DNA of 60,955 bases from Promethearchaeia archaeon (lineage in GTDB: Archaea; Asgardarchaeota; Lokiarchaeia; Sigyniarchaeales; SOKP01). Below the pieces are notes generated by a model. It worked only from the letters and a program-made list of their open reading frames with translations. It ran no database searches and was not told the DNA's origin. The position numbers and the translations under genes are program-made. Location: the NCBI GenBank assembly GCA_029856155.1, contig JAHQWL010000013.1:1-60955 (forward strand), in the 5' to 3' direction. Shown piece by piece: positions 56,472 to 60,954 of this stretch. Numbering within the stretch: the first letter of the stretch is position 1; each line of letters starts with the position of its first letter.

Positions 56472-56644
56472 TTAGTAATATCCATTAATTTCTTATATAA
56501 GTTTAATAGGTAATTCATTAAAATAAATTTCATTATCAATATTAAAGAAGAAAATAAATCCAATCAATAAATATCATAAAATTTTTATGAAAATATACAT
56601 TTTAGAAGTTAATTTTGCTTTTTTAAGTTCGATATTGATGCATC

Positions 56645-57043
56645 GTGTCTTCTGAAAAAATAGTATATAAATTGAATATCAGCGGTGGAAATGTTGGGAT
56701 CGGTAAAGGATTAACTAAACAAATCGAGATTGACGAAAAAAAATTCCATTTTGAAGGAATGAAAATTGGGGATATTATCAAGGGTGGTCTCATAGGATTT
56801 CCGAACTATGAATTCCAAATTACAGGTGGAAGCGATTCGAGTGGTTTTCCAATGAGAAAGGATGTCCACGGACCTGTAAAAAAAAGAATTCTTGTTTCTA
56901 AAAGAGGAACTGGATACAAACCCATAAGAAAAGGAGAAAAAAAAAAGAGAACTATTCGAGGTAATGAAATTACGTATAATATGACTTTAATTAATATGAA
57001 GATTGTTAAATACGGGGAAGCTGAACTTTTTAAAAAGGAGTAA
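56645..57043 (+). CDS. rps6e: 30S ribosomal protein S6e
   Basis: YKLNIS, GMKIGD, ITGGSDSSGFPMRKDV.G, RGN.I. Confidence 0.95.
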   Translation: MSSEKIVYKLNISGGNVGIGKGLTKQIEIDEKKFHFEGMKIGDIIKGGLIGFPNYEFQITGGSDSSGFPMRKDVHGPVKKRILVSKRGTGYKPIRKGEKKKRTIRGNEITYNMTLINMKIVKYGEAELFKKE

Positions 57044-57073
57044 AATTGAATATTTATAAAGAGATGATTAAGC

Positions 57074-57256
57074 ATAGTTAAAGTCAAAAAATGCTCATTT
57101 TGTGGGTATGATATTGCTATCGGAAGAGGAATTATGTTCGTAAAAAGAGACGGCACAGTTTTAAACTTTTGCACCAATAAATGCAGGAAAGCTATGATTG
57201 ATTACAGAAAAAAAGCGAGAAAAACAAGATGGACCTCCTATTATGGGAAGCAATAA
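57074..57256 (+). CDS. rpl24e: 50S ribosomal protein L24e, ATA start; not in ORF track
   Basis: (M)VKVKKCSFCGYDIAIGRGIMFVKRDGTVLNFCTNKCRKAM...RKTRWT; an in-frame TGA lies at 57065-57067. Confidence 0.93.
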   Translation: MVKVKKCSFCGYDIAIGRGIMFVKRDGTVLNFCTNKCRKAMIDYRKKARKTRWTSYYGKQ

Positions 57257-57303
57257 TTAGATTTATAAAAACTTATTATTTAAAAGATTTGAAAAAAACT
57301 TAA

Positions 57304-57359
57304 TTATTGTAAACGTGGAAATTTAAGTAACTCATCAATTAAGTTCACATGACTTACGC
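57304..57359 (-). repeat. Second, recoded copy of the rpoN 3' exon with its splice-junction core
   Basis: GCGTAAGTCATGTG core is identical to 57496-57509; encodes SHVNLIDELLKFPRLQ*. Confidence 0.92.
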
Positions 57360-57453
57360 GATTTAATTGAATAATTATTTTAATCTCCCGAAAAAGGATT
57401 TACTCCTTAGAATTATAAAGTGATAAATGTGAATTCTCTATTATTAATTGAGA

Positions 57454-57684
57454 TCATTGTAATCTAGGAAATTTGAGCAACTCATCTATTAGATCCACAT
57501 GACTTACGCTTAGAAAGCGTAGAGCTTACTAATTTACAATCATGCGTTTGCAACAGAAACGCTCAATCCCTAATTCCTTAAATGCTTTTTCTGAAGGTTC
57601 TCCTTTTTCTAAGAGCTCTAAATACGGCTTATATACATGGGCAATTAATTTCCCGCAACTAAAACAGCGGATCGGTATAATAAT
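57454..57684 (-). CDS. rpoN: DNA-directed RNA polymerase subunit Rpo10/N, split: exon 1 57684-57534, exon 2 57503-57454
   Basis: The joined product MIIPIRCFSCGK...ERFCCKRMIV|SHVDLIDELLKFPRLQ (66 aa) is a complete RpoN. ATT start follows GGAGGAGA. Confidence 0.92.
57504..57533 (-). other. Candidate 30-nt bulge-helix-bulge intron in rpoN mRNA
   Basis: The insert carries in-frame TAG TAA. Exon helix CGCAUGA/UCAUGUG, central UUGU/GCGU, 3-nt bulges AAA and AAG, intron hairpin UUAG-U-AAGC/GCUU-U-CUAA. Confidence 0.72.
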
Positions 57685-57825
57685 GGCTGATCTCCTCCAT
57701 TCAGTTAAATAATTTTTTATATTAGATGTTTCCATTAATTAAATTTAAATAATCTTAAAAATATATTAAATCTAAAGTACTTAGTGATTCTTTAAAAATA
57801 AGTTTTTCTATTTAGCTTCTTTTAA

Positions 57826-58671
57826 TTAAACTACAGTTATGATTTGATATTTTTGAAGAAAGTTTGGAATTTCGAAGATAAAATTATTTCTTAAGTATAA
57901 TTTCTTTAAGGATTTTAATTCAATAATGAAGGATGGGAGGGCTTTAAAAAAATTCTTTTCAAGTGATAAAACTTCAAGTGATTCTAAATGGATCAAATTA
58001 GTTGGTAGAGTTTTTAATTGATTACGATTTAAATAAAGCCTTTTAAGAGATCTGAGATCTCCTATTCGAGGAGGAATTTTACTTAATTTGTTATTCTCAA
58101 AGCTAAAAGTCTCAAGTAATTTCAGATCAAAGACTGGAGTAGGAATTTCAGTTAAATTACAACTATCCAAATTAATATGTTTTATTGAATAAATCCGTCC
58201 AGAATCAATATAATCCCAAAACTGGTCAATACCAATTACTCCTTCGGTAAAATCTTCATCATTAGCATTTTTAAGACGCACTAAATGCAAAATTACACCA
58301 GGTTTATGAGCTCGAATTTTATTCTGTAAATCTTTAAGGTAAAACTTTCGCTCACGAATAAATTTTTCTTCCCATAAACCTTTCTCATGTCCCCAGTTTG
58401 CAGCGTCAATTATTTTGGTTCTTAAATCATCAGGAAGGAAGGACCCAGTTAATAATACAAAATAACCAAGAACAAGGTAAACTTTTCTTCTTGAAGACCT
58501 ATTCTCAACAATTTCCATAATTTTATCAAAATTATCTTCAAAAATTCTTCTTGTTAGAATTCTATCATCTTTATAATAATCTTTTAGGTTTAATCCACAT
58601 ACTTTAATAAAAATGGATGTAAGATCAGATTCTTCATCTCCTTCCATAATTTCAGCTGTTAATTTTGCCAT
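57826..58671 (-). CDS. Leucine-rich repeat protein
   Basis: Repeated LxxLxLxxNxLxxLP units in the C-terminal third. Confidence 0.88.
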   Translation of the reverse strand: MAKLTAEIMEGDEESDLTSIFIKVCGLNLKDYYKDDRILTRRIFEDNFDKIMEIVENRSSRRKVYLVLGYFVLLTGSFLPDDLRTKIIDAANWGHEKGLWEEKFIRERKFYLKDLQNKIRAHKPGVILHLVRLKNANDEDFTEGVIGIDQFWDYIDSGRIYSIKHINLDSCNLTEIPTPVFDLKLLETFSFENNKLSKIPPRIGDLRSLKRLYLNRNQLKTLPTNLIHLESLEVLSLEKNFFKALPSFIIELKSLKKLYLRNNFIFEIPNFLQKYQIITVV

Positions 58672-58746
58672 AAATTGGATAATAAATTAATTTGAATTTT
58701 TTTAATATGAAAGTAAAAAAATTGGTATTTAAATAATATTATTTTA

Positions 58747-60954
58747 TTAAAATCTTATAGTCCCAAAATATCCAGATTGATAAAATAGTTTGGCTTCTTC
58801 AAAATTCATTCCATCAAAAAGTTCTTTTATAACTAAATTGATTTTATTTGTTATTTTATATGTTTTTATAGTACTAGGGGAATAACCAAGGTCTAATAAT
58901 AACTCTTCGGCATTATCACAGAAAATTATACGTTTCCTAGCACGTGGTTTATCGAAAAATTCTAGTTTTGCACTTCTTATACCACTCATCTCTTTTTCTA
59001 AAAATATCTCGATTGTGTATTGAGGTAACTTTAACTGATCTGCAATTTGTATTGTAGTAGTAAATCCTTTAGAAATTAGGGACCGGATTAGTTTAATTAA
59101 ATAAACTTTCTGATGATTACATAAAAACGTCCAGACTTTTCTATCATTCATCCCAACTAACTTTAAAGCAATTTGAGAGGGAGTTTGGAGACCACTTTCT
59201 ATTAAAGTATCAATGATCTCACCTAAATATTCTTTTTGGATAAGATCAAAGCTTTTTCCTTCAAAACAGTCTTTTAAAATACTATAGACTTGAGAACGTG
59301 AAATATATCCATCATCTGTGAATGGACTTGGGAAAAACCCCCTAAGCTCCTCTTGCGAATATCCTTGTTTAATATATTTTAATAGTTCAGGTTTTAAAAA
59401 TTTTCTTCTAACTGCATACCAATTTCCATTAGTTTCAGGCCAGAATTCCTTTATTCTATTAAAAATTGTCTTTCTATCCACTCTAAAATATTCAGATATT
59501 TGTCTTTGAGTAAAACCTGTTTTAATTAACATTCTGAGAGCACCAGCATCGATATTCTTCTTAGCGTGGCCCTTATGGCCTCCTATTGTTCCTGATCGTA
59601 TATTATAGCCTATAGAAGGATTCTTTGAATCGGTTAAATCAATATACCAATCTTCTAGAGCTTCAATATATCTACAATCACGATCAAAATTAGTTGTAGT
59701 AAAGACAATTTCATACACTTTGATGGTAAAGACATCTAAAATGGCAGTTCTGCCAACATCACCTCCACCAGCAACGGTATAAATATCATGCATATCATTA
59801 TATATTGATCCATCTCGTTTATCGTATGTCTCAGAGATTTTAATATAATCATAAATACGATCAGATATTGGAACTAAACCAGTATAGTATTCAAGACGTT
59901 GTTCAGTCCTACCCCACATTATTTTGCCATTTTGAGTATTAGTCCACAAATATATTATACCAAATACTCCCCGACCTTCATCCCAAGTAGCATCGATCCA
60001 TTCTTTTGTCTTAGATACTTGCCTAATGAATCTTTCTTCAACATCTGGAATTATGATCCTTTTTTGAATAGGATCAAATTTTACGCCTTTAGGTCCCGTA
60101 TACATCGGGATCGTCGTCTGTAAAGTAAGCTTCTCTTCTATTTTATCTGCTATTACTTCTTTCTGATTCTTTCGGTTTTCAATTAAATCTTTTTGAATAT
60201 TCTCATCGATAAACCCATACGTCGTTCCATGTCGAGTAACGGGATGGTTGATTAAATTATTGATTGTATTAACCGACCCAATAGACTTTACTTCACTCCC
60301 CACCCAAGGAGTATTTTTAGGACTAACCAAAAGGAATTCCTTCTGTGTATTGGAAAGTACACTAATACCTTCTTCTGACTTAATTCGCTCAATTTGATTA
60401 CTCAACGAATTTTGATGGCGATTAGACATTTCGAAAACAGGCTTCACAGACCTCTCACGATCCTTTTTCAGAACTAATTCAAATAACTCTTTGACGGTAG
60501 GAAGTTCTGTTCCCCCAATGATCATAACATTTCCTAAAATTGAAGCTGTAGTTGTACCAAAGAAACCACCGGATAGTGCTCCAGCAAATAATAAAATAGT
60601 AGATATAACAGTTTCTACAATTTCTCTTCTTGAACTTTCATGAGTTCTTTGTAATCGAAAATTCTCTTCTGCTTCTTGAAGATTTAATATCGAATCTTGC
60701 TGAGTTAGTTGAAGAGTTTGAGAAATTTGATTTTGAGCTTGTGTATTGATTAAATTTAAACCTTGACCAAGGATCTGAGTTACTTGACTTACACCAGATT
60801 CTCTCGCGCTCTCCCAGAAACTGCTCCATAAAATTTGTTCCCATGCATCTCCACCAGCTTTTCGAACTTCATTTGAAACATAGGCTTCAATCCAGGGATC
60901 TATATACAATTCCTCCATTGTCTCTGAAAATACTGCAGTGGAGACTCTAAATAA
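58747..60954 (-). CDS. C-terminal part of a large protein with a hydrophobic Gly-rich hairpin, a GIY-YIG-like nuclease domain and tandem HTH repeats; 5' end beyond window
   Basis: The frame is open to the window edge. GIIYLWTNTQNGKIMWGRT...R...E..YI...NP..GYNIR; GFTQRQISEYFRVDRKTI and further HTH-like units. Confidence 0.65.
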   Translation of the reverse strand, partial: LFRVSTAVFSETMEELYIDPWIEAYVSNEVRKAGGDAWEQILWSSFWESARESGVSQVTQILGQGLNLINTQAQNQISQTLQLTQQDSILNLQEAEENFRLQRTHESSRREIVETVISTILLFAGALSGGFFGTTTASILGNVMIIGGTELPTVKELFELVLKKDRERSVKPVFEMSNRHQNSLSNQIERIKSEEGISVLSNTQKEFLLVSPKNTPWVGSEVKSIGSVNTINNLINHPVTRHGTTYGFIDENIQKDLIENRKNQKEVIADKIEEKLTLQTTIPMYTGPKGVKFDPIQKRIIIPDVEERFIRQVSKTKEWIDATWDEGRGVFGIIYLWTNTQNGKIMWGRTEQRLEYYTGLVPISDRIYDYIKISETYDKRDGSIYNDMHDIYTVAGGGDVGRTAILDVFTIKVYEIVFTTTNFDRDCRYIEALEDWYIDLTDSKNPSIGYNIRSGTIGGHKGHAKKNIDAGALRMLIKTGFTQRQISEYFRVDRKTIFNRIKEFWPETNGNWYAVRRKFLKPELLKYIKQGYSQEELRGFFPSPFTDDGYISRSQVYSILKDCFEGKSFDLIQKEYLGEIIDTLIESGLQTPSQIALKLVGMNDRKVWTFLCNHQKVYLIKLIRSLISKGFTTTIQIADQLKLPQYTIEIFLEKEMSGIRSAKLEFFDKPRARKRIIFCDNAEELLLDLGYSPSTIKTYKITNKINLVIKELFDGMNFEEAKLFYQSGYFGTIRF

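What the first reader, a model, noticed from the sequence alone, without database searches (positions are those of the whole stretch)
57454..57684. Candidate BHB (tRNA-type) intron in the mRNA of RNA polymerase subunit Rpo10 in an Asgard archaeon
Seen: rpoN stops prematurely (..CCKRMIVN*) because of a 30-nt insert, AUUAGUAAGCUCUACGCUUUCUAAGCGUAA. Removing it gives a full 66-aa RpoN ending SHVDLIDELLKFPRLQ. The pre-mRNA can fold as follows: a 7-bp exon-exon helix (CGCAUGA/UCAUGUG); a 4-position central helix UUGU/GCGU (G-C, two G-U, one U-U); two 3-nt purine bulges (AA^A and AA^G); and an 8-bp intron hairpin (UUAG-U-AAGC, loop UCUAC, GCUU-U-CUAA). Cutting after the second nucleotide of each bulge removes exactly these 30 nt and leaves a 7-nt loop, which is the geometry of a 37/38 tRNA intron. 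Established: EndA cleaves BHB motifs, RtcB ligates the exons, and the textbook archaeal mRNA intron is in crenarchaeal cbf5. Inference: the tRNA splicing machinery is needed to express a core RNA polymerase subunit here. That would be mRNA splicing in the lineage closest to eukaryotes and could couple RNAP supply to EndA/RtcB activity. Caveat: the central helix is weak, so this is a relaxed BHB.
Basis: partly seen in the sequence, partly recalled or inferred. Interest (0 to 1): 0.95.

Follow-up and report, generated by a model that had tools for sequence, protein, structure and literature searches.

The report
Mobile tRNA-type mini-intron in Asgard rpoN
The only gene for RNA polymerase subunit Rpo10 in this Asgard archaeon is broken by a 30-base tRNA-type intron that must be cut out of the mRNA, and related genomes suggest the intron spreads between species, often beside a DNA-cutting "homing endonuclease" gene.

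Summary
rpoN (minus strand) carries a 30-nt insert (57504-57533) with two stops. Removing it restores the conserved 66-aa Rpo10. It is the genome's only rpoN.

The same insert (31 nt, frame-shifting) sits at the same codon in 9 other species of the genus and 8 metagenome contigs. These give 16 distinct versions. Compensatory changes occur in the intron hairpin and in the exon-intron central helix. Exon 2 never changes an amino acid.

The genome has alpha and beta EndA subunits (crenarchaeal-type loop lysine present) and RtcB. I conclude a BHB pre-mRNA intron (about 0.8). No RNA data covered the site.

New findings:
- Intron-bearing species are scattered among intronless sisters.
- Many loci keep a relic of the resident exon 2 just downstream (57304-57359 here). 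It matches the intronless sister's allele and begins 0-12 nt after the insertion site.
- 10 of 16 intron loci (not this window) have a free-standing double-motif LAGLIDADG endonuclease gene next door, against 1 of 36 intronless loci.

This points to repeated lateral insertion, probably "collaborative homing".

The scan has noted similar mini-intron/endonuclease pairs in DPANN and Hadesarchaea, and many candidate BHB introns in this genome. I found no paper describing this.

The parts
57534..57684 (-). rpoN (Rpo10) exon 1: 50 codons plus the first base of the junction codon. The likely start is ATT 57684, after GGAGGAGA. An in-frame ATG at 57735 is an alternative start.
   Evidence: PF01194 match 57532-57681, model positions 1-50, 77.9 bits. 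Translation. Relatives start M/I/V/L-IIPIRCF at this position.
57504..57533 (-). 30-nt BHB mini-intron, bounded by cleavage after the 2nd nucleotide of each 3-nt bulge. It contains in-frame TAG and TAA.
   Evidence: The same site holds a 31-nt insert in 17 other assemblies. Covariation.
57510..57532 (-). Intron hairpin (h'): UUAG-U-AAGC, loop UCUAC, GCUU-U-CUAA.
   Evidence: MFE. 4 of 9 pairs show changes on both sides across relatives; 91% of cells are paired.
57536..57546 (-). 5' strands of the exon-exon helix (CGCAUGA, 57546-57540) and of the central 4-position helix (UUGU, 57539-57536).
   Evidence: The third position of the Ile codon (col 12) covaries with intron col 44 (CG 10, UA 3, UG 3). 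All intron alleles have CGC...CAT here, while intronless alleles vary.
57496..57509 (-). 3' half of the BHB: GCGU (central helix), bulge AAG, and UCAUGUG (exon-exon helix).
57454..57503 (-). rpoN exon 2 ('copy A'): G + UC.. giving (S)HVDLIDELLKFPRLQ, then the TGA stop.
   Evidence: 16 distinct nucleotide versions in relatives. 13 of 15 codons vary and no amino acid changes.
57360..57453 (.). 94-nt spacer of unknown origin between exon 2 and the relic. It is part of the inserted cassette.
   Evidence: No significant match to other loci or elsewhere in the genome. By eye, its 3' end resembles the spacer of metagenome contig L070.
57304..57359 (-). Relic of the displaced resident exon 2 ('copy B'): GCGUAAGUCAUGUG, then NLIDELLKFPRLQ and TAA. 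It is colinear with the ancestral rpl24e flank.
   Evidence: Direct repeat D1, 57 nt, 82% identity, spacing 150. It matches intronless alleles and their flank (G045, G053). Analogous relics occur in G016, G018, G062, L070, L073 and L074.

Best explanation
The 30 nt at 57504-57533 are an archaeal bulge-helix-bulge (tRNA-type) mini-intron in the rpoN pre-mRNA.

How it works:
- The transcript folds so that CGCAUGA of exon 1 pairs with UCAUGUG of exon 2.
- UUGU of exon 1 pairs with GCGU at the intron's 3' end.
- The rest of the intron forms a hairpin. This leaves two 3-nt bulges on opposite strands.
- The alpha-beta splicing endonuclease (EndA) cuts after the second base of each bulge.
- RtcB joins the exons to give ...AUG AUU GUA A|GU CAU GUG..., which encodes the normal 66-aa Rpo10.
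- Without splicing, the protein lacks its last 16 residues. In the 31-nt relatives it is also frame-shifted.

The structure, conservation and enzymes are shown. Cleavage and ligation are inferred.

How the intron got here (inferred, about 0.6): a short donor cassette (intron + donor exon 2 + spacer) was copied into a resident intronless rpoN. This happened by repair of a break at or just 3' of the insertion site. The resident exon 2 was left as a relic at 57304-57359.

In many related loci the cassette still includes a free-standing double-motif LAGLIDADG endonuclease gene. That enzyme probably makes the break in intronless alleles. In this window the gene has been lost.
For: Gene copy number
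- Only one PF01194 match in the 97%-complete genome.
- Each of the 10 intron-bearing genus genomes has only the interrupted copy.

Conserved site
- 10 of 48 genus genomes with rpoN, plus 8 metagenome contigs, carry the insert at the identical codon. All are 31 nt except this one.

RNA structure (alignment A1, 16 distinct sequences)
- 89% of cells are paired, against 31-49% when partners are slid.
- 5 pairs have changes on both sides, including exon col 12 with intron col 44.
- 0 of 500 shuffles reach the covariation score.
- Invariant G-U and U-G pairs make the fold specific to the sense RNA.

Exon constraints
- All intron alleles have CGC..GTA RGT CAT where the helix needs them. In 35 of the 36 intronless alleles the Arg codon is AGA, AGG, CGT or CGA (never CGC) and His is CAC or CAT. 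The 36th sequence was not printed.

Exon 2
- 16 nucleotide versions and no amino-acid change.

Splicing machinery
- EndA alpha matches the A. pernix alpha subunit (3p1z_B, 1e-34). A Lys aligns with residue 44, in the stretch I recall as the crenarchaea-specific loop.
- A second EndA-family ORF, read by eye as non-catalytic, is taken as the beta subunit.
- One RtcB gene is present.
- PMC5829648 reports alpha-beta EndA with the L1 loop in Asgard archaea and links that loop to cleavage of relaxed BHB motifs.

Other genes in this genome
- rnhB has an in-frame 30-nt hairpin insert with two TAA inside DEAGRG.
- elf1 has a hairpin-containing insert of about 31 nt (counted by eye) that shifts the frame.

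Mobility
- On a ProRS tree, the 10 intron genomes need 10 changes. Several have a well-supported intronless sister.
- Relic or hybrid exon 2 on the same contig matches the intronless sister's allele and flank: L074 vs G048 near-identical (2 mismatches) over >200 nt, G016 vs G014, G018 vs G050, G054 vs G011.

Endonuclease gene
- Pfam LAGLIDADG_3 matches.
- Two motifs are present, GLLLADG and GFYDGDG.
- The model has pLDDT 91, and the top-ranked Foldseek hits are almost all LAGLIDADG enzymes (I-DmoI, I-SceI; target TM 0.53-0.58).
- Full or near-full close orthologues lie only beside rpoN: next to 5 of 10 intron genomes and 1 intronless genome.
Against: - No RNA evidence. The three metatranscriptome runs found cover only S6e/L24e of a relative, and the single read-laying run is spent.
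- The central helix has a U.U at one of four positions in 14 of 16 versions. The single-sequence MFE and RNAalifold prefer a longer outer helix with an internal loop. It is therefore a relaxed BHB.
- This window has no LAGLIDADG gene beside rpoN, and the spacer matches nothing.
- The endonuclease's target is unknown.
- G012 carries the endonuclease gene without the intron.
- The genomes are MAGs with 3-9% contamination, so the ProRS tree could be blurred by mis-binning. The relic evidence lies within single contigs and does not depend on binning.
- With only 5 independent pairs, the endonuclease-intron association reaches p about 0.06.
Confidence: 0.8

Rival explanations
1. Translational bypassing ('hopping', as in phage T4 gene 60). 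The ribosome takes off at GUA (Val) just before the stops and lands on the GUA of GCGUAAG 30 nt downstream. It would make the same protein without any RNA splicing.
For: In the window and most relatives, GUAA is repeated at both borders. A stop follows within two codons of the take-off site, and a hairpin fills the gap.
Against: The landing triplet is not conserved: AGA in G054, AUA in G016 and L076, GGA in L070. Those same substitutions create or keep base pairs of the central helix (U-A, U-G). G024 would give Cys instead of Ser. The Arg codon CGC, which lies upstream of the take-off codon, is fixed only in intron alleles, as the BHB helix predicts.
Confidence: 0.04
2. No removal at all. The insert is a DNA-level scar of recombination or endonuclease activity. 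The cell makes a truncated Rpo10 (...RMIVN), and exon 2 is an unexpressed remnant.
For: A clearly unexpressed remnant of exon 2 (copy B) sits 150 nt downstream and also looks intact. That shows an intact-looking reading frame alone proves little.
Against: Exon 2A has diverged to saturation at synonymous sites among 16 intron-linked versions, with no amino-acid change. The intron shows compensatory changes. Both require selection within the intron-bearing lineage. The integrity of the B copies is explained by their match to each lineage's intronless sister. Older relics (G008, G051) appear decayed by eye. All 36 intronless genus alleles examined keep a closely similar C-terminus.
Confidence: 0.04
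3. The intron is real and spliced, but it is old and vertically inherited. The patchy distribution reflects many precise losses (or mis-binned MAG contigs), and the neighbouring LAGLIDADG gene is coincidental.
For: The exon-1 tree is unresolved and does not exclude few origins (starred branches force only 2 changes). MAG contamination is 3-9%. cbf5 introns are known to be lost in some lineages (PMC2738675).
Against: Loss does not explain relics of a resident-type exon 2 downstream of the intron-linked exon 2 on the same contig. These relics match the intronless sister's allele and flank. Loss also does not explain hybrid exon 2 in G054 and G058. Full or near-full close orthologues of the endonuclease gene occur only beside rpoN, and almost only with the intron.
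Confidence: 0.1
4. Assembly or sequencing artefact in this MAG.
For: The one independent DNA contig laid on the window stops at 57491, before the intron.
Against: The same insert is present in 9 other species genomes and 8 metagenome contigs from different projects.
Confidence: 0.01

Closest known systems
cbf5 pre-mRNA BHB intron of Crenarchaeota (Watanabe 2002; Yoshinari 2006; Yokobori 2009, PMC2738675)
   Same: Both are short introns inside a protein-coding gene that fold as a bulge-helix-bulge with exon sequence. Both are presumably cut by an EndA with broad specificity and ligated by the tRNA ligase. Both are patchily distributed among relatives.
   Different: The host gene differs (a core RNA polymerase subunit), and so does the lineage (Promethearchaeota / Asgard). 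cbf5 in this genome is uninterrupted. Here the distribution and relics point to repeated recent lateral gain, whereas cbf5 was read as one gain plus losses. Splicing is not experimentally shown here.
Canonical archaeal tRNA intron at position 37/38 (hBHBh' motif; Marck & Grosjean 2003, cited from knowledge)
   Same: The geometry matches: outer helix, 3-nt bulge, 4-position helix between exon and intron, 3-nt bulge, and an intron helix. Splicing leaves a 7-nt loop on a 7-bp stem, like an anticodon arm.
   Different: The substrate is an mRNA. One position of the central helix is U.U in most versions. No tRNA body is present.
'Collaborative homing' of an ORF-less intron and a free-standing homing endonuclease (F-CphI beside cyanophage psbA; Zeng, Bonocora & Shub 2009, as described in PMC6083498)
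   Same: The intron has no ORF of its own, and an endonuclease gene sits just outside the interrupted gene. Both show presence/absence polymorphism, and the intron travels with the endonuclease gene.
   Different: Here the intron is enzyme-spliced (BHB), not a group I ribozyme. The endonuclease is LAGLIDADG, not Endo VII-like. The host is an archaeon, not a phage. Cleavage of the intronless site and protection by the intron are untested. The window itself has lost the endonuclease gene.
Archaeal rRNA BHB introns that encode LAGLIDADG endonucleases (I-DmoI, I-Tsp061I; matched)
   Same: Both pair a BHB intron with a double-motif LAGLIDADG enzyme of the same fold.
   Different: In those introns the endonuclease ORF lies inside a long rRNA intron. 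Here the intron is 30-31 nt and the ORF is free-standing, upstream or downstream of a protein gene.

Membership tests
Archaeal BHB (tRNA-type) intron | Two 3-nt bulges on opposite strands, separated by a 4-bp helix and flanked by helices (hBHBh') | tested here: met
   The geometry is present in all 16 distinct versions. The central helix has 3 standard pairs plus U.U (U-G in 2 versions), so the motif is slightly relaxed.
Archaeal BHB (tRNA-type) intron | Cutting after the 2nd nucleotide of each bulge gives a functional product | tested here: met
   In every version, removal restores ...RMIV(S/G)HVDLIDELLKFPRLQ*. Ser or Gly at the junction are the residues seen in intronless alleles.
Archaeal BHB (tRNA-type) intron | Helices are maintained by selection (covariation) | tested here: met
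   5 pairs have changes on both sides. The covariation score is 0.157 against 0.103 in shuffles (0 of 500 reach it) and 0.03-0.05 when partners are slid.
Archaeal BHB (tRNA-type) intron | The host encodes the splicing endonuclease and RtcB ligase, and the endonuclease type accepts relaxed motifs | tested here: met
   Two EndA-family genes are present. The alpha subunit is most similar to A. pernix alpha, with a Lys aligned to residue 44. One RtcB gene is present. The literature on Asgard EndA is PMC5829648.
Archaeal BHB (tRNA-type) intron | The spliced RNA and excised (circular) intron exist | not testable with these tools
   The RNA runs found do not cover rpoN, and no further read-laying run is available.
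LAGLIDADG homing endonuclease (neighbour gene in related loci) | Two LAGLIDADG motifs with acidic residues, and the alpha-beta-beta-alpha-beta-beta-alpha double-domain fold | tested here: met
   The motifs are GYYFGLLLADG and LLGFYDGDGEEG. Pfam LAGLIDADG_3 matches 35 of 45 family members, best E 6.4e-12. The model has pLDDT 91, and Foldseek probability is 1.00 to I-DmoI, I-SceI, I-AniI and PI-PfuI.
LAGLIDADG homing endonuclease (neighbour gene in related loci) | Site-specific DNA cleavage of alleles that lack the element | not testable with these tools
   This needs a biochemical assay. Indirect support: relics begin 0-12 nt 3' of the insertion site.
Collaborative homing (ORF-less intron plus free-standing endonuclease) | The endonuclease gene lies next to the intron-bearing gene and is absent from intronless alleles | tested here: inconclusive
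   Met in 10 of 16 distinct intron loci against 1 of 36 intronless loci (Fisher p 0.001, not corrected for kinship; 5 independent pairs, p about 0.06). Not met in the window itself, where the gene is missing.
Translational bypass (gene 60 type) | Matched take-off and landing codons conserved across homologues | tested here: not met
   The landing triplet differs from GUA/GUU in 4 of 16 versions.

The most novel reading that the evidence does not exclude
Tiny ORF-less BHB introns invade essential protein genes of Asgard archaea by collaborative homing. A free-standing LAGLIDADG endonuclease parked beside rpoN cuts the near-palindromic intronless site (CGNATGATNGTNAGYCAYGTG). The 30-31-nt intron splits that site and makes its carrier immune. 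Break repair then copies the intron, a donor exon 2 and the endonuclease gene into new species, leaving relics of the old exon. After fixation the endonuclease gene decays or is lost (as in this window), and the intron stays, because only the tRNA-splicing machinery keeps the gene working. This would be a general route by which enzyme-spliced introns accumulate in mRNAs in the lineage nearest to eukaryotes.
Probability: 0.45. Interest if true: 0.9.

Novelty: new variant of a known kind. Interest (0 to 1): 0.8.

Why it matters
Until now the textbook case of an archaeal intron in an mRNA has been cbf5 of Crenarchaeota. Here an essential, single-copy RNA polymerase subunit of an Asgard archaeon can be made only if its mRNA is processed by the tRNA-splicing enzymes. 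The same genome shows similar inserts in rnhB and elf1.

The comparative data also catch the intron in the act of spreading:
- relics of the displaced exon
- hybrid exons
- a LAGLIDADG gene that is intact, decayed or lost in different species

This gives a concrete and testable mechanism for how ORF-less BHB introns enter protein genes. It bears on how intron-rich genes could arise before the spliceosome. It also matters practically: such genes are mis-annotated as truncated or as pseudogenes.

Tried and rejected
- RNA evidence. The look-up of sequencing runs gave 3 metatranscriptomes with small shares. Laid on 56600-57800, they cover only S6e/L24e at 90-95% identity and nothing over rpoN. This is uninformative and is not evidence against expression.
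- Generic genome-wide BHB scan. I required a 7-bp outer helix with at least 6 pairs, a central helix with at least 3 of 4, and an 8-10-bp stem with at most 1 mismatch. It found 2549 hits against 2441 in the reversed genome. Frame-restoring candidates were no more frequent at the correct splice boundary than at boundaries shifted by 1-2 nt (93 vs 84 and 90). The motif alone is too common in this AT-rich genome. Only single cases stood out, such as C44:81452-81481.
- First structure model of the endonuclease, from 9 sequences: pLDDT 53, unusable. A profile search of A2 against PDB sequences found nothing meaningful. A deeper alignment (A3) solved this.
- Origin of the intron and spacer. The hairpin sequence is unique in the genome. 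The spacer matches nothing significant. There is no Rfam family in 57000-58000.
- Far copy of exon 2, which would indicate a large integrated element. None lies within about 13-15 kb downstream in G001, G008 or G024.
- rpoN introns elsewhere. None was found in about 100 genomes of 28 other genera of the class. The G118 partial match is a contig end.
- The exon-1 tree (150 nt) is too poorly resolved to decide between one or many origins.

Full report
**What is in the window**

On the minus strand, rpoN runs from ATT 57684 (after GGAGGAGA; an ATG at 57735 is also in frame). It stops at ...CCKRMIVN**. The 30 nt from 57533 down to 57504 hold TAG and TAA. Without them the frame continues as SHVDLIDELLKFPRLQ and ends at TGA 57456-57454. 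That gives a 66-aa protein with the canonical Rpo10 C-terminus.

- outer helix CGCAUGA / UCAUGUG
- central UUGU / GCGU
- bulges AAA and AAG
- a 23-nt hairpin

The 81-nt region is more stable than all 200 shuffles (z = -3.16). The single-sequence MFE and RNAalifold draw the central part as an internal loop. The BHB register therefore has to be judged from comparative data.

**Sole copy, and a conserved site**

The genome (97% complete) has one PF01194 match. In the genus (54 species genomes, 48 with rpoN), 10 have a match that stops at model position 49-50, and none of these has a second copy. A pattern scan of metagenome contigs added 8 more loci.

In all 18 the insert is at the same codon. 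It is 31 nt everywhere except the window, so it shifts the frame. No interrupted rpoN was found in about 100 genomes of 28 other genera of the class. Record titles name the carriers as Promethearchaeota (Asgard) MAGs.

**Structure under selection**

This analysis uses alignment A1 (16 distinct rows).
- 89% of pair cells are standard pairs, against 31-49% when the 3' partners are slid.
- Five pairs change on both sides.
- No shuffle out of 500 reaches the covariation score.
- Four covarying pairs are in the hairpin. In G058 it becomes a perfect 9-bp stem.
- One links the third base of the Ile codon in exon 1 with an intron base (C-G 10, U-A 3, U-G 3). This is the defining exon-intron helix of a BHB.
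- The weak U.U becomes U-G in two versions.
- Invariant G-U and U-G pairs mean the fold exists only in the sense RNA.

Exon bases that must pair are fixed in every intron allele (CGC ... GTA RGT CAT). The 35 intronless genus alleles printed use AGA, AGG, CGT or CGA for Arg (never CGC), CAC or CAT for His, and any Ser or Gly codon.

Exon 2 exists in 16 nucleotide versions. 13 of 15 codons vary and no amino acid changes.

**Machinery**

The genome encodes two EndA-family proteins.
- One is most similar to the catalytic alpha subunit of the A. pernix heterotetramer (3p1z_B, 1e-34). A Lys aligns with residue 44, which from my own knowledge is the key residue of the crenarchaea-specific loop.
- The other appears by eye to lack the catalytic His, so I take it as the beta subunit.

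One RtcB gene is present. PMC5829648 reports alpha-beta EndA with the L1 loop in Asgard archaea, and links that loop to cleavage of relaxed BHB motifs. Aragorn finds introns in 11 of the 23 tRNAs it detects.

Two other genes of this genome show the same kind of insert.
- rnhB has an in-frame 30-nt hairpin with two TAA inside DEAGRG.
- elf1 has a hairpin-containing insert of about 31 nt (counted by eye) that splits the first CxxC and shifts the frame.
- The uL11 N-domain match lacks its first 16 positions.
- cbf5 is uninterrupted.

**Rivals**

- *Ribosomal hopping from GUA to GUA* would give the same protein. However, the landing triplet is AGA, AUA or GGA in four versions, and those changes improve the central helix.
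- *A truncated protein with a dead exon 2* cannot explain saturated synonymous divergence without one replacement, nor compensatory changes in the insert.
- *An assembly artefact* is excluded by 17 other assemblies.

**The second copy of exon 2, and mobility**

Exactly 150 nt downstream (57304-57359) lies a second copy of the 3' splice half plus exon 2. It is 82% identical, with one D-to-N change. Similar copies occur in G016, G018, G062, L070, L073 and L074. By eye, decayed remnants occur in G008 and G051.

These copies are not maintained paralogues. Each matches the intronless allele and downstream flank of that lineage's closest intronless relative.
- L074 vs G048 is near-identical (2 mismatches) over more than 200 nt.
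- G016 vs G014 differs at one base.
- G018 vs G050 and G000 vs G045 behave likewise.

They begin 0-12 nt 3' of the intron insertion site. In G054 and G058, exon 2 is a hybrid of a donor-type 5' part and a resident-type 3' part, with no relic.

On a ProRS tree, the 10 intron genomes need 10 changes, and several pair with an intronless sister on well-supported branches. Together this indicates repeated, recent copying of a short donor cassette into resident intronless genes. The upstream side is homologous and the downstream joint is often non-homologous. That is what repair of a break at the insertion site would leave. The single-marker tree and MAG contamination are caveats. The relic evidence lies within contigs.

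**The neighbour gene**

In 10 of the 16 distinct intron loci, an ORF of 400-660 aa lies next to rpoN.
- It is convergent downstream in G001, G008, G024, G051 and L069/L071/L072.
- It is upstream in G062, L073 and L074.

It has two LAGLIDADG motifs with the acidic residues, plus a C-terminal helical DNA-binding-like tail. Pfam LAGLIDADG_3 matches 35 of 45 members of the wider family. A model at pLDDT 91 has top-ranked matches that are almost all LAGLIDADG endonucleases or maturases, including the archaeal intron enzymes I-DmoI and I-Tsp061I.

Within the genus, full or near-full close orthologues (48% identity or more) lie only beside rpoN.
- They sit next to five intron genomes. Two of these copies are broken by stops or frameshifts.
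- A fragment occurs at a contig end in G058.
- One sits next to an intronless genome, G012, whose site reads ITSH.
- None is within 1.5-2.5 kb of the other 35 intronless genes.

Five independent pairs all go the same way (p about 0.06, the best five pairs can give).

The window itself has no such gene. Its 94-nt spacer matches nothing. By eye it shares its 3' end with the spacer of L070, a closely similar locus whose relic has lost a further 17 nt.

**Comparison with known systems**

The intron is a new member of the class typified by the crenarchaeal cbf5 pre-mRNA intron (PMC2738675). It has the geometry of a 37/38 tRNA intron. The pairing with a free-standing endonuclease resembles collaborative homing of the psbA group I intron with F-CphI (PMC6083498). 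Here, however, the intron is enzyme-spliced, the enzyme is LAGLIDADG and the host is archaeal.

I found no paper in the held library describing BHB introns in Asgard mRNAs or in rpoN. Recent papers describe only the intron-rich tRNA genes of Asgard archaea.

Earlier notes of this scan report similar mini-intron/endonuclease pairs in DPANN and Hadesarchaea, and many candidate BHB introns in this same genome. I reached the endonuclease link before reading them. I checked only rnhB, elf1 and uL11 myself.

**Verdict**

- The BHB-intron reading is strongly supported by sequence and comparative evidence, but lacks RNA proof (about 0.8).
- Lateral spread is well supported (about 0.75).
- The endonuclease-driven mechanism is plausible and testable (about 0.45-0.6).

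Noticed in passing
window 57074-57256 (+): rpl24e has no ATG, GTG or TTG between an upstream in-frame stop and its conserved KCSFCG start. The ORF listing begins only at 57134. A non-canonical start (ATA or GTT near 57074-57077) seems needed, as also for rpoN (ATT 57684).
   Followed up: no
own genome C83:92734-93363 (+) (L150): rnhB (RNase HII) carries an in-frame 30-nt insert with two TAA inside the DEAGRG motif. The insert is a 7-bp perfect hairpin (UUAAUUC/GAAUUAA). It is a probable second BHB mini-intron.
   Followed up: partly
own genome C83: about 75372-75450 (-) (L152): elf1: the first CxxC (FTCPE|CGEKS) is split by an insert of about 31 nt (counted by eye) that contains the hairpin AGAUCGGA/UCCGAUCU and shifts the frame. 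The Pfam match covers only model positions 27-78.
   Followed up: partly
own genome C44:136049-136177 (+) (L151) and C44:81452-81481 (+): The uL11 N-domain match lacks its first 16 positions, consistent with the first-stage note of two mini-introns. Separately, my scan found a 30-nt candidate with perfect BHB scores (8/8, 4/4, 7/7) joining two long open frames (...FLCGFHV^TRAALRDLYVKG...).
   Followed up: no
L148 (G040:C201) and L149 (G151:C271): In another genus of the order, genomes with an intact rpoN also hold stray rpoN fragments. One is an N-terminal 17-aa piece fused to a membrane ORF. The other is a diverged C-terminal 37-aa piece. These may be relics of gene replacement at rpoN there too.
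   Followed up: no
genus genomes, table: These genomes hold many paralogues (about 30% identity) of the LAGLIDADG gene. Several have internal stops or sit inside very long frames (up to about 1240 aa, perhaps inteins). This looks like a large, partly decaying homing-endonuclease family. G000 has distant copies on C25, C34 and C52.
   Followed up: no
window 57826-60954 (-): The LRR gene and the 723-aa HTH-containing protein upstream of rpoN recur upstream of intron-bearing rpoN in G018 and L076. Pfam gives only a weak HTH_23 hit for the large protein. It is unrelated to the LAGLIDADG family (no BLASTP hit).
   Followed up: partly
window 57505-57521 (-): A 7-bp hairpin (UACGCUU UCU AAGCGUA) competes with the BHB fold in this window. 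By eye it is only partly present in relatives (6 of 7 pairs in G001, about 3 bp in G018), so it is probably not a conserved switch.
   Followed up: partly
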